Shown here one piece after another: positions 35,202 to 47,130 of a DNA stretch of 64,000 nt. The DNA is from Salmo salar (Eukaryota), in NCBI RefSeq assembly GCF_905237065.1, contig NC_059464.1, positions 3,047,803 to 3,111,802 on the forward strand, read 5' to 3'. How positions within the stretch are numbered: position 1 is the stretch's first letter; the number at the start of each line of letters is the position of its first letter. The notes below the pieces were generated by a model. The model saw only the letters and a program-made list of their open reading frames with translations. It was not told the origin of the DNA and did no database searches. A program made the position numbers and the translations under genes.

Positions 35202-36362
35202 TCATCCAATGACTGACACATGAGTCCTGATGTGTTTGGTCAGCTTAGCCGCCTCACTGAAAGCCTTGCCACACAAGCTGCAGGTGTGGGCCCAGCCTCC
35301 GGCAAGCCGCATTCCATTATGAACACGCTGGTGCTTCCTACACGTGTAGGCGTCCTTGAAGCTCATGCCGCAGACAGGGCAGCCATACAGACGCAGCTCC
35401 GTGTGAACACGCCGGTGGTTCCTCAGTGTGCCATCGTTGTTGAATCGCTTGCCACACAGTGCGCAAACGTACGGCTTCTCCCCTGTGTGAATGCGGAGGT
35501 GGATCTTGAGGCGTGACACGTGACTGAATATCTTACCACACTGAGGGCACGGGTGGGACCTCTGATCCCCCCTGTTGTTTGTTTGTTGTTGACCCCTGTT
35601 GTTTGTGGACCTGTTTATTTGTTGATGACACCTATTTGTTGATCTATTTGTTTGTTGTTGACGTCTGGTTTGACCCTGGTAGAACTGGGAGGTCAAGGGA
35701 CCTACGGTACTGGTGGTGGTGGCGTCCCCAAAGTCTTGTTCTGGCCCTGTTGTTACACAACCATCGCTGCCAATCTGACGGAAAAAGCCGTCTGAGATCA
35801 TGGCAGCACTAGCTGATACCAGGTCAGTGGGGACGCCCGAGGCAGTGGAGGCACCATACCGGCTGCTCTCTGCAACCACTGACTCCAGGTCAGCGCTCAG
35901 GTCTGAGACAGTGTAATTGGTTTCAACAGTGGCTGGTCCAGGGTCCGAACTGGTGTTTAGTTCACCATACCCCATCTGAGCAGAAACTGACCCCAAGTCA
36001 GTAGGGCTGGTATCACTAGGCTCTGTTTTGATGCCCTCAGAGTTATAGTGTAAAACCACTCTGTCCACGGGGCATGATGTGCTGCTGAAGGGATTTGCAG
36101 AGGGAAGGAGATGCTGGTCGTCTTCTTCGTCCAAGTCCCTTTTCACAGACGCTGAAGTCAATGGAGCTACTACTGGGGTGGTAGCCGATGTATCGGTTTG
36201 TTGTGAGGACAGGGTACATGGAGAGTTACACAGACTCTTCCACTCGGTGCAGTCTGTGGGTAGCTGGCTATGTGTGGCAGGCATCTCATCCTGGCTCATT
36301 TCCATGTGGTTCTGGGTGTGTGTAGACTCAGCGTCTGGACCCTGGTCGGCGCTCCACTGGTG
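35202..36362 (-). CDS. C2H2 zinc-finger gene 1, main exon: low-complexity linker plus four C2H2 fingers and the stop codon
   Basis: The 423-aa minus ORF ends ...[117 protein letters not shown]. The fingers are canonical C-X2-C-X12-H-X3-H units joined by HTGEKPY linkers. The upstream acceptor is unresolved. The strongest polypyrimidine-AG (TTTCTCTCTCTGTCTCTGGGCAG| near 36363) gives phase 0, whereas exon 1 ends in phase 1. Confidence 0.6.
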   Translation of the reverse strand, partial: [386 protein letters not shown]

Positions 36363-36758
36363 CTGCCCAGAGACAGAGAGAGAAACAGGCCTGGTCGAGA
36401 CTGGATGGACTGACGGACATACCGACAAATAGACAGAAAAGAGAAACAAATCAGATTGATTAAGTTTAAACAACTACAGAAGCAACGACCCAGACACGAG
36501 ATCTCAAGCATTCTGTAGGATGAGCTTGTTTGTGTAATGTGGTGATCTACAAGGCTTGAGACTGTCCAAATGCCCCATATCATAATCTTCTAGAAAAACC
36601 TGCATCGCCTCCCCTTTATATACACTCAGTGAAAGAATTGACAGGTGAAAACAGTATGGGCAGCAGAGGTCTTTTTTTTCTCAGATGAGTGCAAATAAAG
36701 GAGATGAGGAGAGGTCCGATTTTTCAGACAATAGACAAAGAGCCATTTGCATCATCAC

Positions 36759-38225: not shown

Positions 38226-40690
38226 CCTCAATGTTATCCTCACAAAGAATCTTGATAGGTATCAGTCTGGTGTTTTCTGTAATGACCTTAGTGATCGCTG
38301 TTTTACAGCCTGTGTTCGTAATGGCTGCTCAGTGAAACGACCTGTCCTGATTTGTCATAGACCCTTGCTAAGAAACTTTTATGAGAAAGCCTTCCTTCAT
38401 GAACTGGCCTCTGTCAAATGGTATAGAATCAGCTTGATCCCCTCTGTCGAAGACGCTTGGACATTCTTTTTTGATATTTTCTGTGATATTGTTAACACGC
38501 CCCCAAAGAAAATGAGAATTTAAAAAAGGTTCAGCCCCTGGTTCGACAGTGATCTTGCAGAGTTACTCCACCTCAAGAATTGCATTCAGCGAAAGGCTCA
38601 GCACATGCATACTCAGGCTGACTGGCTATCGTTCAGGCAAATGAGAAATAAGTGCACTCAGGCTATCCGGAAGGCCAAAGTTAGTTACTTTAAATGGTTA
38701 AAGACCTGGAGAACAAAAGCTCCTCCTCACAGCTGCCCATGTCCCTTAATGTTGATGATGTGGTTGTTACTGACAAGAAGCACATGGCTGAGCTCTTTAA
38801 TCACCACTTCATTAAGTCAGGATTCCTATTTGACTCGGCCATGCCTCCTTGCCCGTCCAACATTTCCTCAACTCCCACCCCTTCTAACGCGACTATCCCC
38901 GATGCTTCTGCCTCTTTTTCCCCTGTCCTGTTACAAAGTTTCTTCCTGCAGGCAGTCACTGAGTCTGAGGTGCTAAAGGAGCTCCTTAAACTTGACCCCC
39001 CAAAAATATCTGGGTCAGATGGTTAAGACGATTTCTTCTTTAAGGTTGCTGCCACTATCATCGCCAAGCCTGTCTCTCATTTCTGAAGAGGTTCCCATTG
39101 CTTGGAAGGCAGCCACGGTTCGTCCTTTATTTAAAGGGGAGATCAAGCTGATCCTAACTGTTATAGGCCTATTTCTATTTGCCCTGTTCATCAAAAGTGC
39201 TGGAAAAACTTGTCAATAATCAACTGACTGGCTTTCTTGATGTCTATAGTATTCTCTCAGGTATGCAATCAAATACCGACTAAGTAGTATTGGTGTCTCT
39301 GAGGGGTCTTTGGGTTGGTTTGCTAACTACCACTCTCAGAGAGTGCAGTGTATGAAGTCAGAAAACCTGTCTCACCCACTGCCTGTCACCAAGGGAGTAC
39401 TGCAAGGCTCGATCCTAGGCCCCACGCTCTTCTCAAATTTACATCAAGAACATAGCTCAGGCAGTAGAAAGCACTCACATCCATTTATATGCAGATGATA
39501 GTCTTATATACAGCTGGCCCCTCCCCGGATTTTATGTTAAATGCTTTACAAAGCTTTCTTAGTGTCCAACAAGCTTTCTCTACCCTTAACCTTGTTCTGA
39601 ACACCTCCAAAACAAAGGTCATGTGGTTTGGTAAGAAGAATGTCCCTCGTCCCACAAGTGTTATTGCTACCTCTAACGGTTTAGAGCTTGAGGTAGTCAC
39701 CTCATACAAGTACTCGGGAGTATGGCTAGACGGTGCACTGTCCTTCTCTCAGCACATATCAAAGCTGCAGGCTAAAGTTAAATCTAGACTTGGTTTCCTC
39801 TATCGTAATCAATCCTCTTTTCACCCCAGCTGCCAAACTAACCCTGATTCGGATGACCACCTACCCATGCTAGATTACGGAGACATAATTTATAGATTGG
39901 CAGGTAAGGGTGCTCTCGAGCAGCTAGATGTTCTTTACCATTCGGCCATCAGATTTGCCACCAATGCTCCTTATAGGACACATCACTGCACTCTATACTC
40001 CTGTAAACTGGTCATCTCTGTATACCTGTCGCAAGAGCCACTGGTTGATGCTTATTTATAAAACCCGCTTAGGCCTCACTCGCCCCTATCTGAGATATCT
40101 ACTGCAGCCCTCATCTTCCACATACAACACCTGTTCTGCCAGTCACATTCTGTTAAAGGTCCCCAAAGCACACACATCCCTGGGTCGCTCCTCTTTTCAG
40201 TTCGCTGCAGCTAGCGACTGGAACGAGCTGCAACAAACACTCAAACTGGACAGTTATCTCAATCTCTTAAGTCAAAGACTCAATCATGGACACTCTTACT
40301 GACAGTTGTGGCTGCTTTGTGTGATGTATTGTTGTCTCTCTCCTCTTGCCCTTTGTGCTGTTGTCTGTGCCCAATAATGTTTGTACCATGTTTTGTGCTG
40401 CTTCCATGTTGTTGTTTTGTTGTGTTGCCATGTGTTGCTGCCTTGCTATGTTGTTGTCTTAGGTCTCTCTTTATGTAGTGTTGTCTCTCTTGTTGTGATG
40501 TGTGTTTTGTCCTATAATTATTGTGTATATATATATATATATATATATTATTTTATTTTTTTATGTATCCCAGGCCCCATTCCCACAGGAGGCCTATTGG
40601 TAGACCGTCATTGTAAATAAGAATTTGTTCATAACTGACTTGCCTAGTTAAACAAAGGTTAAATAAAATTAAAATAAATAAAAACCCTGT
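38226..40690 (+). mobile_element. 5'-truncated LINE (salmonid RSg-1-like): ORF2 region after the endonuclease, RT domain, and a 3'UTR ending in the SmaI-type tail
   Basis: ORFs 38694-39026, 39310-39498 and 39489-40061 read ...LKLDPPKISGSDG, ...IGVSEGSLGWFANYHSQRVQCMKSENLSHPLPVTKGVLQGSILGPTLF, and ...YADD-type region...LNLVLNTSKTKVMWFGKK.... The 3' end at 40560-40690 is ...CATTGTAAATAAGAATTTGTTCATAACTGACTTGCCTAGTTAAACAAAGGTTAAATAAA, matching the tail of the SmaI SINEs at 45485 and 61578. Confidence 0.65.
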
Positions 40691-40699
40691 GGACGGCGC

Positions 40700-40956
40700 T
40701 TGATTGGAGACATTTTCCTCCTACAACAGGACAATGATCCAAAGCACCGCTCCAAGCTATGAAATAACTATTTAGGGAAGAAGCAGTCAGCTGGTATTCT
40801 GTCTATAATGGAGTGGCCAGCACAGTCACCGGATCTCAACCCTATTGAGCTGAGAATTGTCCATCAAGCCAATCCAACTTGTGGGAGGTGCTTCAGGAAG
40901 CATGGGGTGAAATCTCTTCAGATTACCTCAAAATTGACAACTAAACTCAGCAAAAA
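40700..40956 (+). mobile_element. Tc1-like transposase C-terminal fragment
   Basis: The plus frame reads ...[53 protein letters not shown]... Confidence 0.55.
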
Positions 40957-43842
40957 AAAGAAACGTCCTCTCACTGACAACTGTGTTTATTTTCAGCAAA
41001 CTTAACATGTGTAAATATTTGTATGAACATAAGATTGAACAACAGACAAACTGAACAAGTTCCACAGACATGTGCCTAACAGAAATGGAATAATGTGTCC
41101 CTAAACAAAGGAGGGGTCAAAATCAAAAGTAACAGTCAGTATCTGGTGTGGCCACCATCTGCATTAAGTACTGCAGTGCATCTCCTCCTCATGGACTGCA
41201 CCAGATTTGGCACCAGACTGCACCAGATTTGTTACTTCACTCTTCCACCAAGTTCCCGGACATTTCTGGGGGGAAATGGCCCTAGCCCTCACCCTCCGAT
41301 CCAACAGGTCCCAGACGTGCTCAATGGGATTGAGATCCAGGCTCTTCGCTGGCCATGGCAGAACACTGACATTCCTGTCTTGCAGGAAATCACTCACAGA
41401 ATGAGCAGTATGGCTGGTGGCATTGTCATGCTGGAGGGTCATGTCAGGATGAGCCTGCAGGAAGGGTACCACATGAGGGAGGAGGATGTCTTCCCTGTAA
41501 CGCACAGCGTTGAGATTGCCTGCAATGACAAGCTCAGTCCGATGATGCTGTGACACACCGCCCCAGACCACGACGGACCCTCCACCTCCAAATCGATCCC
41601 TCTCCAGAGAACAGGCCTCGGTGTAACACTCATTCCTTCAACGATAAATGCAAATCCGACCATCACCCCTGCTGAGACAAAACCGCGACTCGTCAGTGAA
41701 GAGCACTTTATGCCAGTCCTGTCTGGTCCAGCGACGGTGGGTTTGTGCCCATTGGTGACGTTGTTGCCGCTGATGTCTGATGAGGACCTGCCTTACAACA
41801 GGCTTACAAGCCCTCAGTCCAGCCTCTCTCAGCCTGTTGCGGACATTCTGAGCACTGATGAAGGGATTGTTCGTTCGTGGTGTAACTCGGGCAGTTGGTG
41901 TTGCCATCCTGCACCTGTCCCGCAGGTGTGATGTTCGGATGTACCGATCCTGTGCAGGTGTTGTTACACGTGGTCTGCCACTGCGAGGACAATCAGCTGT
42001 CCGTCCTGTCTCCCTGTAGTGCTGTCTTAGGAGTATCACAGTATGGACATTGCAATTTATTGCCCTGGCCACATCTGCAGTCCTCATGCCTCCTTGCAGC
42101 ATGCCTAACGCACGTTCACACAGATGAGCAGGGACCCTGGGCATCTTTCTTTTGGTGTTTTTTAAAGTCAGTAGAAAGGCCTATTTAGTGTCCTAAGTTT
42201 TCATAACTGTGACCCTAATTGCCTACCGTCTGTAAGCTGTTAGTGTCTTAACGACCATTCCACAGGTGCATGTTCATAAATTTTTTTTTATGGTTCATTG
42301 AACAAGCATGGGAAACAGTGTTTAACCTGTTGGGGATAGGGGGCAGTATTTACACGGCCGGATAAAAAACGTACCCGATTTAATCTGGTTACTACTCCTG
42401 CCCAGCAACTAGAATATGCATATAATTATTGGCTTTGGATAGATAGAAAACACCCTAAAGTTTCTAAAACTGTTTGAATGGTGTCTGTGAGTATAACAGA
42501 ACTCATATGGCAGGCAAAAACCTGAGAAGATTCCTTACAGGAAGTGGCCTGTCTGACAAGTTCTTGTTCATCTTGGCTCTTTTTATTGAAGACTGAGGAT
42601 CTTTGCTGTAACGTGACACTTCCTACGGCTCCCATAGGCTCTCAGAACCCGGGAAAAAGCTGAATGATATCGAGGCAGCCCCTGGCTGAAACACATTAGC
42701 GCGTTTGGATGGCCTGTCAGAGGACCATCAGACTGGGGCTCGTGCACGAGGGCACGAGATATTTTTATTTTCTCTCTCTTTGAACGAAAACCACCACTCC
42801 CGGTCGGAATATTATCGCTTTTTTATGAGAAAAATGGCATAAAAATTGATTTTAAACAGCGGTTGACATGCTTCGAAGTACGGTAATGGAATATTTAGAA
42901 ATGTTTTGTCACGAAATGCGTCGTGCTCGTCACCCTTCTTTACCATTCGGATAGTGTCTTGAACGCACGAACAAAACGCCGCTATTTGGATATAACTATG
43001 GATTATTTGGGACCAAACCAACATTTGTTATTGAAGTAGAAGTCCTGGGAGTGCATTCTGACGAAGAACAGCAAAGCTAATAACATTTTTCTTATAGTAA
43101 ATCTGACTTTGGTTAGTGCTAAACTTGCTGGGTGTCTAAATAGCTAGCCCTGTGATGCCAGGCCATCTACTCAGAATATTGCAAAAAGTGCTTTCACCGA
43201 AAAGCTATTTTAAAATCGGACATAGCGAGTGCATAGAGGAGTTCTGTATCTATAATTCTTAAAATAATTGTTATGTTTTTTGTGAACGTTTATCGTGAGT
43301 AATTTAGTAAATTCACCGGAAGTGTTCGGTGGGAATGCTAGTCACATGCTAATGTAAAAAGCTGGTTTTTGATATAAATATGAACTTGATTGAACAAAAC
43401 ATGCATGTATTGTATAACATAATGTCCTAGGGGTGTCATCTGATGAAGATCATCAAAGGTTAGTGCTGCATTTAGCTGTGGTTTGGGTTTATGTGACATT
43501 ATATGCTAGCTTGAAAAATGGGTGTCTGATTATTTCTGGCTGGGTACTCTGCTGACACAATCTAATGTTTTGCTTTCGTTGTAAAGCCTTTTTGAAATCG
43601 GACAGTGTGGTTAGATTAACAAGAGTCTTGTCTTTAAAATGGTGTAAAATAGTCATATGTTTGAGAAATTGAAGTAATAGCATTTCTAAGGTATTTGAAT
43701 ATCGCGCCACGGGATTACACTGGCTGTTGAGTAGGCGCAAGCGTCCCACCTAGCCCATAGAGGTTAAACCCTTTACAATGAAGATCTGTTAAGTTATTTG
43801 GATTTTTATGAATTATCTTTCTTTTTTTTGCTGAGTTTAGAA
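40957..43842 (-). mobile_element. Tc1-like transposon (transposase pseudogene, 5' end AAAAAAAAGAAACGTCCTCTCACTG...) split by a nested 1.44-kb TTAA element
   Basis: Minus ORFs 41164-41571 (...HDNATSHTAHSVSDFLQDRNVSVLPWPAKSLDLNPIEHVWDLLDRRVRARA...) and 41638-42144 (MPRVPAHLCERALGMLQGGMRTADVARAINCNVHTVILLRQHYRETGRTADCPRSGRPRVTTPAQDRYIRTSHLRDR...[17 protein letters not shown]). The element runs to ...GGGAAACAGTGTTTAA at 42325 and resumes with ACCCTTTACAATGAAGATCTGTTAAGTTATTTGGATTTTTATGAATTATCTTTCTTTTTTTTTGCTGAGTTTAG over 43768-43842. Confidence 0.75.
42326..43763. mobile_element. Non-autonomous TTAA-target element (piggyBac-like MITE), copy 1, inserted in a Tc1 element
   Basis: The termini CCTGTTGGGGATAGGGGGCAG... 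and ...CCCACCTAGCCCATAGAGG form imperfect TIRs. TTAA lies on both flanks (42322-42325 and 43764-43767). Removing the element and one TTAA restores the uninterrupted Tc1 sequence GTGTTTAAACCCTTTACAATG. I found no transposase-like ORF. Confidence 0.65.
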
Positions 43843-44049
43843 TGCCAAAGGTCTGCAAGGCTGTAATTGCTGCAAATGGAGGATTCTTTGACGAAAGCGA
43901 AATTTGAAGGACACCATTTTTATTTCAATGAAAAATCATTATTTATAACCTTGTCAACATCTTGACTATATTTCCTATTCATTTTGCAACTCATTTCATG
44001 TATATTTTCAAGTGACCCCAAACTTTTCAATGGTAGTGTATATAATAAT

Positions 44050-44075
44050 AATAATAATAATATATAAATGGAGTG
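44050..44075. repeat. (TAA)n microsatellite
   Basis: Read directly. Confidence 0.9.
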
Positions 44076-44196
44076 GAGAGACTTTAACCCAACACCTAGC
44101 AACCTTGTCAAGAGGTTTGGATCTTTGGGCGTAACAGCGAAGGTGTTGGATTGACAGTCACTGGTCAGGACTACCGCCTAAATTCGCTACAATATA

Positions 44197-46220
44197 CAGT
44201 GAGCTACAAAACTATTAGGACAGTGACACATTTTTTGTTGTTTTGGCTCTGTACTCCAGCACTTGGGATTTGAAACGATACCATGACTGAGGTTAAAGTG
44301 ACTGTCAGCTTTTAATTAGAGGGTATTTTCATCCATATCGGGTGAACCGTTAAGAAATTACAGCACTTTTTGTACATAGTCCACCTATTTTAGGGGACCA
44401 AAAGTATTGGGACAAATTCACTTATATGTGTGTTAAAGTAGTCAAAAGTTTAGTATTTGGTCCAATAGCCCTAGCACGGAATGATTATAGCAAGTTTGTG
44501 ACTCTACAAACTTGTTGGATGCATTTTAATGTAAATAAGAATATAATATGTTTCTAAACACTTCTACATTAATGTGGATGTTACCATGATTACAGATAGT
44601 CCTGAATTAATCGTGAATAATAAAGTTAGACGCACAAATATCATACCCCCAAGACATGCTAACCTCTCACCATCACAATAACAGGGGAGGTTAGCATTTT
44701 GGGGGGGTATGATATTTGTGCGTCTAACTTTCTCATTATTCAAGATTCATTCAGGACTATCTGTAATCATGGTAGCATCCACATTAATGTAGAAGTGTTT
44801 AGAAACATATTATATTCTTATTTATATTAAAAGTGACTCCAAAACGACAATACATTACCATTCATTTCTAGTCGGCACAAAATAATCTGAAACACAACCA
44901 AAACAAACAGCAAATGCATCCAACAACAACTTTCTCACTCATCATCATTCACGATTCATTCAGGACTATTCGTAATCATGGTAGCATCCACATTAATTAT
45001 ACTCCTTTTGCCATGGGACAAAGACAAAAATGTTTCCAGTTTTACAGCAAATTTTCTTAAATTCTACCCCTTTTGCCATGTGATGGACATAATCGTTTTC
45101 AGTTTTAAAGTAAATTTCCTGCAATTCTACACAATTTCCCATGACTTATGCAATGTTAATGATATCTGAGTGAGAGTGACTAACAAAATCAATGGGGGCC
45201 ACCTGGAGTTCAGGGCCCCTGGGGATGTGCCCTGCGTGCACGGTCGGTAGTTGGCCATGATTACAAGTTTAGATAGCTTGCCAGACTAACATACCATTCT
45301 AAAAAGAGTTATCTGACATGGCTAATTGAGTGACTGTCAGTGATGACAAAACAAGAGAAAAATTGCTGATGCATAACCAAATGTTGAACTTGCACCTTGT
45401 GTATTCTACTATTCTAACTCTTAATTAGTAAGTTGAGACCACAACTGCGGTGCTTATGCCTGGAGCCGGCCCTGGTGATAGGGGTAAACCAGGTAGCGTA
45501 GCCTAGTGGTTAGAGCGTTGGATCGAATCCCCGAGCTGACAAGGTACATATCTGTCGTTCTGCCCCTGAACAAGGCAGTTAACCCACTGTCCCTAGGCCG
45601 TCATTGAAAATAAGAATTTGTTCTTAACTGACTTGCCTAGTTAAATAAAGGTAAAATAAAATAAAAAAATGGAGGACAAGTTGTCATAGGCCAACAACCT
45701 ATATAGCCCATACTGCCATACCTGCCCAATACCCAGGCCCCAGCCACAGAGTCAGTATTTCGCTTTTATGTGAAGATAGATGGCTGTTTAGAAACATATT
45801 CTATTCTTGTTGACCAAAAAATGTATTGACTCCAAAATGACACAATGCATTATTTACCATTCAATTCTATTGGGCACAAAATAATCTGAAACAAAAATGA
45901 AAACAGCAAATGCATCCAACAAGCTTGATGTAATCATTGCGTGCAAGGAATATGGGACCAAATACTAAACTTTTGACTACTTTAATACACATAAGTGAAT
46001 TTGTCCCAATACTTTTGGTCCCTTAAAATGGGGACAATGTACAAAAAGTGCAGTAATTTCTAAATAGTTCACCCAATATGAATGACAATACACTTAAATT
46101 TAAGCTGTCAGTCTGCAGTTGAATGTAATAGTCATTGTATTACTTCAAATCCAAAGTGCTGCAGTACAGAGCCAAAAATAACAAAATATGTCACTGTCCC
46201 AATACTTTTGGAGCTCACTG
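44197..46220. mobile_element. Foldback-like element with inverted arms of about 350-440 bp and CAGTG termini (CAGTGAGCTACAAAACTATTAGGACAGTGACA ... TGTCACTGTCCCAATACTTTTGGAGCTCACTG)
   Basis: Arm A at 44197-44560 is the reverse complement of 45770-46220. A roughly 290-bp near-perfect palindrome at 44537-44830 is centred near 44680. Partial arm copies lie at 44830-45000, and a SmaI SINE is nested at 45485-45668. It has no coding capacity. Confidence 0.6.
45485..45668 (+). mobile_element. SmaI-type tRNA-derived SINE
   Basis: GGTAGCGTAGCCTAGTGGTTAGAGCGTTGGATCGAATCCCCGAGCTGACAAGGTACATATCTGTCGTTCTGCCCCTGAACAAGGCAGTTAACCCACTGTCCCTAGGCCGTCATTGAAAATAAGAATTTGTTCTTAACTGACTTGCCTAGTTAAATAAAGGTAAAATAAA(A)n. 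Confidence 0.8.
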
Positions 46221-46252
46221 CATAATAATACAATATAATAATGTATTCCAAC

Positions 46253-47130
46253 CTCAGGTGCCGTCTCAGGTTGCCTCTCTGGGTAAAGCTTTTGGAGCAC
46301 CAGGAGCAGCGGTGGGGCCTCTCCCCCGTGTGGATACGGTGGTGGCGCCGCAGGTCAGCCGACTGGGCAAAGGACTTACAGCACCAGTCACAGGCGTAGG
46401 GCTTCTTATACTGAAGGTGGAGGTGGAGGCTGGCCGCCTGGCTGAAACTCTCCCCACATCGGGTGCAGCGGTGTGGGCGCCCCTCCTGGTGGTCGGTGGG
46501 GGTGAAGTTGTTACTCTCGTTGTATGGCAACACCTGGTCCTTGGACCCAGGCTCTGTTTCATATGTTTGCTGGTCATGTACGGGTGTGTTATGGAGCTCT
46601 GAGATGTCCATATCTGGAAGGTCTTTGAAGCCAGCGTCGCCTGAGAGTTCATGGTTGTGGGGTAGTAGTGTTATAGGAAGACCTGTGTAGCCTGAACTGG
46701 ATTGAGGTTCATGGTTGGTGAGGTTCAATGTGACGTCGCATTCCTTGGGTTCCATTTTGATCCGTCCCTGGATTGGGTCGATGGGAGAGGACCTCTTTCT
46801 CTCTGTCCTAAGGACTGGCACTTCAGCGTTGGCTGCTCCAGTTGTTGTGGCACAGTGGGCATTGGAGGAGAACGGAGATGGTGCCAAGGACGAGGTGTTT
46901 CCAAAACCCTTGGCTTCTGGGTCTGAGTTGTGCTCTGTCTTTGGGATTGCCTGTCCTGGACTGGACTTCTCTTCTGCTCGGACCGTTTCAGTGTGTCCCT
47001 GGTTTGGTCCTGTGAGACCCCCATCCTTACCCAACGCTACCTGGCTCTGTGTCTGTAGCCCTCGTCTGTTGACCTGGCTCTGCTGCTGGGGCTCTGGGTC
47101 CTGTTCCTGTCTGGAGCTCCACTCTTGCTC
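46253..47130 (-). CDS. C2H2 zinc-finger gene 2, main exon: linker plus fingers, ending at a splice donor that falls inside a finger
   Basis: The minus ORF 46132-47034 and its upstream extension read ...HRCTRCGESFSQAASLHLHLQYKKPYACDWCCKSFAQSADLRRHHRIHTGERPHRCSWCSKSFTQRGNLRRHLR. The last finger lacks its second histidine and is followed by AG|GTTGGA in phase 2. The remainder of the ORF (LEYIIILYYY...) is intron read-through. The acceptor is unresolved and the 5' coordinate is approximate. The ORF track starts this ORF at a TTG codon. Confidence 0.55.

What the first reader, a model, noticed from the sequence alone, without database searches (positions are those of the whole stretch)
42322..43767. 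A second TTAA-target MITE family inserted into a Tc1 element, with a precisely reconstructable empty site
The 1438-bp element (CCTGTTGGGGATAGGGGGCAG...CCCATAGAGG) interrupts a Tc1 transposon. Deleting it together with one TTAA restores GTGTTTAAACCCTTTACAATG, which matches the contiguous Tc1 sequence as I remember the family consensus. A second copy of the same family occurs at 60457-61502. Insertion into a Tc1 element means it postdates Tc1 activity at this locus. TTAA target duplication plus imperfect roughly 20-bp TIRs beginning CCT/CCC point to the piggyBac superfamily. No coding capacity was found, so an autonomous partner must exist elsewhere.
Basis: seen in the sequence. Interest (0 to 1): 0.6.

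Follow-up and report, generated by a model that had tools for sequence, protein, structure and literature searches.

The report
Known salmonid pTSsa1 transposon inside Tc1
This is an ordinary, decayed copy of pTSsa1, a non-coding piggyBac-like cut-and-paste transposon family described in Atlantic salmon in 2007, which landed in a TTAA site inside an older Tc1 transposon.

Summary
A 1438-bp element (42326-43763) lies between two TTAA copies and splits a Tc1 transposon. Removing it plus one TTAA restores a 1452-bp Tc1. That Tc1 aligns in one piece (90.4%) with the published Salmo salar copy DTSsa5-9. Four published DTSsa5-family copies lack the insert.

The element is not new. It aligns end to end, TTAA to TTAA, at 83-88% identity with published DTSsa13 (= pTSsa1, GenBank EF685966) copies from de Boer et al. 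2007 (BMC Genomics 8:422). It meets that family's published features:
- TTAA target
- CCTG ends
- inverted repeats of about 22 bp
- length of about 1440 bp
- no ORF
- NheI-repeat segment (two NheI sites 362 bp apart)

That paper already reports nesting in Tc1 elements. The sister family pTSsa2 is polymorphic in salmon populations (Bertolotti et al. 2020).

The "second copy" (60457-61500) is only a diverged, shorter relative. It is 77-81% identical over the first 200 bp and patchy elsewhere.

The piggyBac assignment fits the TTAA target and the CC...GG ends, and the ends rule out Kolobok. It still rests on cis features, because I found no autonomous partner in the papers I read. At 1.4 kb, "MITE" is a loose label.

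Verdict: already known, low interest.

The parts
42322..42325 (.). Left TTAA target-site duplication. It is also the single TTAA of the uninterrupted host Tc1.
   Evidence: both HSPs of DTOmy5-1 include this tetranucleotide.
42326..43763 (+). pTSsa1 (DTSsa13) non-autonomous piggyBac-like element, 1438 bp.
   Evidence: It aligns end to end with published S. salar DTSsa13 copies at 83-88% identity. It differs by about 7% from a 5-copy consensus. No Pfam domain in six frames. No Rfam hit.
42326..42347 (+). 5' terminal inverted repeat, CCTGTTGGGGATAGGGGGCAGT.
   Evidence: 14 of 22 positions match the reverse complement of the 3' end. The first 29 bases (CCTGTTGGGGATAGGGGGCAGTATTTGCA) match published DTSsa13-23/-36 with one mismatch (window A at 42351 vs G); the 21-base TIR core is identical.
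42326..42551 (+). Conserved 5' subterminal region of about 225 bp, shared across pTSsa lineages.
   Evidence: 87-90% identical to pTSsa2 (DTSsa14) copies, whereas the interior is 66-77% or unalignable. 77-81% between copy 2 and all family members. de Boer et al. report about 94% between the two families.
43143..43510 (+). Segment bounded by two NheI sites (GCTAGC at 43143 and 43505, 362 bp apart). Corresponds to the 'NheI repeat' that de Boer et al. place inside pTSsa elements.
   Evidence: published DTSsa13 copies show spacings of 368-376 bp. One search gives the paper's statement. GenBank L25409 itself was not compared.
43732..43752 (+). Remnant of the 3' subterminal palindrome (family: TAGGTGGGACG-CAAG-CGTCCCACCTA). 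It has lost 5 bp (TGGGA) between 43735 and 43736.
   Evidence: Alignment with published copies. The palindrome is detected in published copies but not in copy 1.
43742..43763 (+). 3' terminal inverted repeat, CGTCCCACCTAGCCCATAGAGG.
   Evidence: identical to the 3' end of many published DTSsa13/14 copies.
43764..43767 (.). Right TTAA target-site duplication.
40944..42325 (-). Host Tc1 (DTSsa5 family), larger part. Holds the degraded transposase reading frame and the right end.
   Evidence: 89.5% to DTOmy5-1. Pfam DDE_3 (E 2e-12) and HTH_Tnp_Tc3_2 (E 1.9e-7). TA at 40942-40943.
43764..43837 (-). Host Tc1 (DTSsa5 family), the 74-bp left-end piece cut off by the insertion.
   Evidence: 91% to DTOmy5-1 positions 37-93. 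The rejoined 1452-bp element gives one HSP of 90.4% to DTSsa5-9. TA at 43838-43839.
60457..61500 (+). Diverged, shorter (1044 bp) relative of the pTSsa group. TTAA at 60453-60456. The 3' TTAA (61503-61506) is displaced by two bases (TG).
   Evidence: Inverted repeats match at 15 of 22 when the end is set at 61500. The 5' 200 bp is 77-81% identical to published copies; the closest are DTOmy13-1 and one unnamed sequence of the supplement. Its empty site could not be checked.

Best explanation
The 1438-bp sequence is one old copy of pTSsa1 (DTSsa13; GenBank EF685966). pTSsa1 is a high-copy, ORF-less, piggyBac-like DNA transposon family of salmonids.

Shown here:
- The copy sits in a TTAA site 90 bp from the left end of a DTSsa5-family Tc1 element, upstream of that element's transposase frame, and the TTAA is duplicated.
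- That Tc1 had itself inserted at a TA inside a still older Tc1-like element, so the order of arrival is outer Tc1-like, then DTSsa5, then pTSsa1.

Inferred:
- A piggyBac-type transposase encoded elsewhere recognised the roughly 22-bp imperfect inverted repeats, and probably the conserved 5' 200 bp.
- It excised a donor copy and pasted it into the TTAA.
- This copy is probably no longer mobile. It differs by about 7% from a small family consensus and has lost 5 bp of the 3' subterminal palindrome.
For: Family identity: copy 1 aligns collinearly from TTAA to TTAA with five published S. salar DTSsa13 copies at 83-88%.

It also meets every feature in Table 1 and the text of de Boer et al. 2007:
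- TTAA target
- CCTG end
- inverted repeats of about 22 bp
- about 1440 bp
- no ORF
- NheI-bounded segment

Insertion event: published DTSsa5 copies are contiguous across the site. The DTOmy5-1 HSPs share exactly TTAA. The rejoined host gives a single 90.4% HSP.

Superfamily:
- TTAA duplication with 5'-CC...GG-3' ends and short asymmetric inverted repeats is the piggyBac pattern as stated in PMC10175614.
- Kolobok, the other TTAA-specific superfamily, has 5'-RR...YY-3' ends (PMC9587614).

Mobility of the group: intact pTSsa2 copies are presence/absence polymorphisms in 492 Atlantic salmon (PMC7560756).

Possible transposase sources: piggyBac-like elements with both ends, and piggyBac transposase genes, are reported in S. 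salar.
Against: - No transposase has been tied to these inverted repeats, either here or in the papers I could read. The superfamily call is therefore based on cis features alone.
- The ends are CCTG and CCTC, not the 'CCYT' given as the piggyBac rule in PMC10175614.
- Identity to published copies is only 83-88%, and the species of the window is unknown. Assignment to the pTSsa1 lineage is at family level, not to a particular subfamily.
- My consensus rests on five copies, so the 7% age proxy is rough.
Confidence: 0.92

Rival explanations
1. The 1.4 kb is an integral part of a Tc1 subfamily rather than an insertion.
For: None found. No second copy of this Tc1 family exists in the window for comparison.
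Against: Four published copies of the family lack it. The host realigns as one HSP once the insert and one TTAA are removed. The same 1.4 kb occurs independently with TTAA flanks in many published loci.
Confidence: 0.01
2. It is a non-autonomous element of another TTAA-targeting superfamily, such as Kolobok/T2-like, and only resembles piggyBac.
For: TTAA duplication is not unique to piggyBac (PMC9587614). No piggyBac-type transposase has been linked to these ends. The fourth base of the ends is G or C, not the T of the 'CCYT' rule.
Against: Kolobok ends are 5'-RR...YY-3'. Here both elements and all published copies start CC and end GG. Short asymmetric inverted repeats fit piggyBac.
Confidence: 0.05
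3. It is a dispersed restriction-site 'satellite' (the NheI repeat) or a segmental fragment, and the TTAA flanks are coincidental.
For: The family was first noticed as an NheI repeat. It contains a weak internal duplication with an offset of about 390 bp.
Against: The ends are defined to the base and match in independent loci. The four inverted-repeat motifs occur only at element ends. The host sequence is restored exactly with one TTAA. Published copies are flanked by TTAA.
Confidence: 0.01

Closest known systems
pTSsa1 (= DTSsa13 in the supplementary files; GenBank EF685966), de Boer et al. 2007, BMC Genomics 8:422
   Same: Full-length collinear alignment at 83-88%. TTAA target, CCTG end, inverted repeats of about 22 bp with fixed left/right differences, about 1440 bp, no ORF, NheI-bounded internal segment. 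Also found nested in Tc1 elements.
   Different: This copy has its own substitutions (about 7% from a small consensus) and a 5-bp deletion in the 3' subterminal palindrome. The species of the window is not established.
pTSsa2 (= DTSsa14; GenBank EF685967), recently active in Salmo (Bertolotti et al. 2020, PMC7560756)
   Same: Same ends. The 5' 225 bp is 87-90% identical. Same length class and TTAA target.
   Different: The interior is only 66-77% identical or unalignable. pTSsa2 copies are young and polymorphic, whereas this copy is old.
Non-autonomous piggyBac derivatives of other vertebrates, such as human MER85/MER75 and Xenopus/bat piggyBac-derived short elements (from my own knowledge, not tested here)
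   Same: TTAA duplication, CC...GG ends, no coding capacity, amplification in trans.
   Different: No sequence similarity was tested. pTSsa elements are much longer (1.4 kb) and uniform in length, and no parent element is known.
Kolobok / T2-type TTAA elements
   Same: TTAA-specific 4-bp duplication; common in fish and frogs.
   Different: Kolobok ends are 5'-RR...YY-3'. This element has 5'-CC...GG-3'.

Membership tests
pTSsa1 / DTSsa13 (de Boer et al. 2007) | Sequence identity above the roughly 80-85% family threshold over the whole element | tested here: met
   83.0-88.1% over positions 1-1446, including both TTAA, against four published full-length copies. 85.0% against the 3'-truncated DTSsa13-36.
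pTSsa1 / DTSsa13 (de Boer et al. 2007) | TTAA insertion site, ITR end CCTG, ITR of about 22 bp, length of about 1440 bp | tested here: met
   TTAA on both sides, CCTG start, 14 of 22 inverted-repeat matches, 1438 bp (Table 1).
pTSsa1 / DTSsa13 (de Boer et al. 2007) | No significant ORF or protein motif | tested here: met
   Longest ORF 86 aa. 17-38 stops per frame. No meaningful Pfam match in six frames: one hit at E 0.0039, well below its gathering score.
pTSsa1 / DTSsa13 (de Boer et al. 2007) | Contains the roughly 380-bp NheI repeat (GenBank L25409) | tested here: inconclusive
   Two NheI sites 362 bp apart, as in published DTSsa13 copies (368-376 bp). L25409 itself was not available for comparison.
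piggyBac superfamily | TTAA target-site duplication | tested here: met
   The empty site in published Tc1 copies holds a single TTAA.
piggyBac superfamily | Short (12-19 bp class) inverted repeats starting 5'-CCY (the 'CCYT' rule in PMC10175614) | tested here: inconclusive
   CCT at both ends and about 20-22 bp of imperfect inverted repeat. The fourth base is G (5' end) or C (3' end), not T. This is a typical feature rather than a strictly defining one.
piggyBac superfamily | Mobilised by a DDE_Tnp_1_7 transposase whose own element carries the same ends | not testable with these tools
   No salmonid genome collection is available. No piggyBac-like coding remnant in the element. The papers I read name no partner.
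piggyBac superfamily | Precise excision or presence/absence polymorphism at TTAA | not tested
   Reported for pTSsa2 in S. salar populations (PMC7560756). Not examined for this copy.
Kolobok superfamily | Termini 5'-RR...YY-3' with TTAA duplication | tested here: not met
   The ends are CC...GG. Rule taken from PMC9587614.
MITE (miniature inverted-repeat element) | Small size, usually under about 800 bp (common usage, my own knowledge); non-coding; inverted repeats and target duplication | tested here: not met
   1438 bp. The other features are met. 'Non-autonomous transposon' is the better label.
Tc1/mariner, family DTSsa5 (the host element) | TA duplication, Tc1-type transposase domains, high identity to published DTSsa5 copies | tested here: met
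   TA at 40942-40943 and 43838-43839. DDE_3 and HTH_Tnp_Tc3_2. 90.4% to DTSsa5-9 over 1435 bp.

The most novel reading that the evidence does not exclude
In the papers I could read, nobody has named the transposase that moves pTSsa elements. The most novel reading still open has two parts, and neither was tested.

1. This abundant, length-uniform, ORF-less family may be driven by the piggyBac transposase genes that sit next to Teratorn-like herpesvirus insertions in Salmo genomes.
2. Its invariant 5' end may spread CTCF-like sites through the genome. The family consensus GGGCTAGGGGGCAG matches the classical CTCF site CCGCTAGGGGGCAG at 12 of 14 positions.

The diverged element at 60457 may also represent a pTSsa lineage not covered by the two named families.
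Probability: 0.08. Interest if true: 0.5.

Novelty: already known. Interest (0 to 1): 0.08.

Why it matters
It matters little beyond correct annotation. The nest (outer Tc1-like, then DTSsa5, then pTSsa1) gives a clean relative order of three transposition events at one salmonid locus. It is also a textbook example of a TTAA empty site.

The family itself is of some interest, because pTSsa2 is still polymorphic in Atlantic salmon and the source of its transposase remains unnamed. This particular copy adds nothing new to that question.

Tried and rejected
- **In-window paralogues.** I looked for copies to test both empty sites. No other DTSsa5 copy exists, and no copy of the repeat hosting element 2 spans its site.
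- **Further family fragments.** Ten published family members used as BLAST queries found nothing else in the window.
- **Coding or RNA function.** Pfam on six frames and Rfam on 40500-45500 gave nothing in the element.
- **Scans for the 5' end with its TTAA.** IMG/VR gave 0 hits. Metagenome contigs gave one hit, L001. It is a pTSsa2-like copy on a 1.7-kb, 1.5x-coverage contig whose two flanks belong to different Tc1 families. It is probably an assembly chimera, so I did not use it as evidence.
- **Species of the window.** Exact-protein look-ups of two zinc-finger ORFs were not on record.
- **Supplement of Bouallegue et al. 2017.** I wanted the Salmo salar piggyBac ends, but the file is not held.
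- **Full-text search for the end sequences.** It returned only unrelated primers and CTCF sites.
- **Large protein searches.** No suitable query was available, results cannot be filtered by taxon, and the verdict would not change.

Full report
**What is in the sequence**

The finding's coordinates are exact. TTAA lies at 42322-42325. A 1438-bp element runs from 42326 (CCTGTTGGGGATAGGGGGCAG) to 43763 (CCCATAGAGG). TTAA recurs at 43764-43767.

The first 22 bases match the reverse complement of the last 22 at 14 positions. Random pairs of 22-mers from the window reach that level with a frequency of about 3e-4. A degenerate version of the end motif, with up to three mismatches, hits only the four ends of the two elements: 4 matches against 0.18 expected.

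The element has no coding capacity:
- The longest ORF is 86 aa.
- Each frame has 17-38 stops.
- Pfam finds no meaningful domain in any of the six frames.
- Rfam finds nothing inside it.

**The host element and the empty site**

The flanks are a Tc1 element on the minus strand (40944-43837), bounded by TA at 40942-40943 and 43838-43839. Its conceptual translation carries DDE_3 and HTH_Tnp_Tc3_2.

The window holds no second copy of this Tc1 family, so I tested the empty site against published sequences. The supplementary FASTA files of de Boer et al. 2007 (PMC2198921) are held as text.
- Two copies, DTOmy5-1 and DTSsa5-9, read CATTGTAAAGGGTTTAAACAC without interruption.
- Two more, DTSsa5-6 and DTSsa5-7, read ...GGGTTTGAACAC at the same place.
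- None carries the 1.4 kb.

BLAST of DTOmy5-1 against the window gives two HSPs: query 37-93 to 43820-43764, and query 90-1141 to 42325-41249. They overlap by exactly the TTAA. With the insert and one TTAA removed, the host is 1452 bp and aligns to DTSsa5-9 as one HSP of 90.4%.

**What the element is**

de Boer et al. describe two piggyBac-like families in Salmo salar, pTSsa1 and pTSsa2, with these features:
- TTAA insertion site
- ITR end CCTG
- ITR of about 22 bp, with consistent left/right differences
- length of about 1440 bp
- no ORF
- an internal 380-bp 'NheI repeat'
- frequent nesting, including inside a Tc1 element

Their supplementary sequences name these families DTSsa13 and DTSsa14.

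Copy 1 aligns from TTAA to TTAA with five DTSsa13 copies at 83-88%. Against DTSsa14 copies, only the 5' 225 bp (87-90%) and parts of the 3' third (72-79%) align. Against a consensus of the five published DTSsa13 copies it differs at 7.2% of aligned sites, within the range of those copies themselves (5-10%). It has also lost 5 bp of the 3' subterminal palindrome GGTGGGACG-CAAG-CGTCCCACC.

It carries two NheI sites 362 bp apart, compared with 368-376 bp in published copies.

The GenBank reference accessions are EF685966 for pTSsa1 and EF685967 for pTSsa2. DTSsa14 copies are 1433-1434 bp without their TTAA. That matches the 1432-1436-bp pTSsa2 deletion polymorphisms of Bertolotti et al. 2020 and confirms the DTSsa14 = pTSsa2 and DTSsa13 = pTSsa1 equivalence.

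**The second element**

The element at 60457 begins after a TTAA (60453-60456) with CCTCTTTGGGATAGGGGG. Its inverted repeat matches at 15 of 22 when the 3' end is placed at 61500. Two extra bases then precede the TTAA at 61503-61506.

It is 1044 bp long. It shares 77-81% identity with every family member over the first 200 bp, and weaker patches in the 3' third. The nearest published sequences are DTOmy13-1 from rainbow trout and one unnamed sequence of the supplement. It is a diverged relative of the group, not a second copy of the same family. Its empty site could not be checked. No other fragment of the group is present in the window.

**How it most likely works**

- **Shown:** the element inserted into a TTAA and duplicated it, and the insertion came after the Tc1 copy had arrived.
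- **Inferred:** it was mobilised in trans by a piggyBac-type transposase.

The TTAA target, the 5'-CC...GG-3' ends and the short asymmetric inverted repeats fit the piggyBac pattern. The other TTAA-specific superfamily, Kolobok, has 5'-RR...YY-3' ends and is excluded.

The fourth base of the ends (G or C) departs from the 'CCYT' rule quoted in one review. No autonomous partner is named in the papers I could read. Superfamily membership is therefore 'piggyBac-like', as in the literature.

The group is genuinely mobile: intact pTSsa2 copies are presence/absence polymorphisms in 492 Atlantic salmon. piggyBac-like elements and transposase genes do exist in Salmo genomes.

The unusually conserved 5' 200 bp (and de Boer's 94%) is the obvious candidate for a cis-acting region needed for transposition. 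That is inference.

**Verdict**

The family, its features and its habit of nesting in Tc1 elements were published in 2007, and its recent activity in 2020. The label 'MITE' is loose for a 1.4-kb element. This is a routine repeat annotation. Novelty is 'already known' and interest is low.

Noticed in passing
window 40690-40941 and 43840-44048: The host Tc1 (DTSsa5) itself interrupts another Tc1-like element at a TA. The left flank reads ...QDNDPKH...[13 protein letters not shown], and the right flank continues with ...MPKVCKAVIAANGGFFDESEI and an end like ...CAATGGTAGTGTA. This makes a three-level nest: outer Tc1-like, then DTSsa5, then pTSsa1. The outer element is only weakly similar to DTSsa4-27 (67% over 129 bp), and its family was not determined.
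   Followed up: partly
window 43817/43818: The host Tc1 lacks about 29 bp (CGTCCCTTTTTCAGGACC.CGTCTTTCAA) of its left terminal region that is present in the published copies DTOmy5-1, DTSsa5-6 and DTSsa5-7.
   Followed up: partly
window 42333-42346 (and the family consensus): The invariant part of the 5' inverted repeat resembles a CTCF site. The family consensus GGGCTAGGGGGCAG matches the chicken beta-globin FII CTCF site CCGCTAGGGGGCAG at 12 of 14 positions. Copy 1 has GGGATAGGGGGCAG. It could be coincidence, since conservation of this stretch is already explained by transposase binding.
   Followed up: no
pTSsa family, e.g. published copy positions 647-740 vs 1035-1128; window about 42970-43240 vs 43360-43620: There is a weak internal direct duplication with an offset of about 390-400 bp (66-71% over 100-215 bp), detectable in published DTSsa13, DTSsa14 and DTOmy13 copies. 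The shorter element at 60457 appears to hold only one such unit.
   Followed up: partly
L001 (ENA metagenome contig ERZ1023313 NODE-5500, 1719 bp): This is salmonid DNA in a metagenome assembly: a pTSsa2-like copy with TTAA on both sides. The left flank is a Tss/Sleeping-Beauty-type Tc1 end. The right flank is a DTSsa5-type Tc1, starting at a different TTAA about 40 bp from the site used in the window. With 1.5x coverage it is probably a chimeric assembly.
   Followed up: partly
window 44524-44832 and 44944-44997: A long, nearly perfect palindrome: 98-nt arms, 96% complementary, 113 nt apart, with an inner 51-nt hairpin and a third partial arm. It looks like a hairpin-forming short repeat element. 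Rfam gives only a sub-threshold mir-3660 match at 44625-44728.
   Followed up: partly
window 35202-36473 (-) and 46132-47034 (-): Two long ORFs end in C2H2 zinc-finger repeats (HTGEKPY linkers). They are possibly exons of zinc-finger genes. Exact-protein look-ups found no record.
   Followed up: partly
window 15574-16372: A tandem array of a 108-bp unit (4.9 copies, 90% matches) is followed by 27-28-bp repeats. It is read by the ORF lister as proline-rich ORFs on both strands.
   Followed up: no
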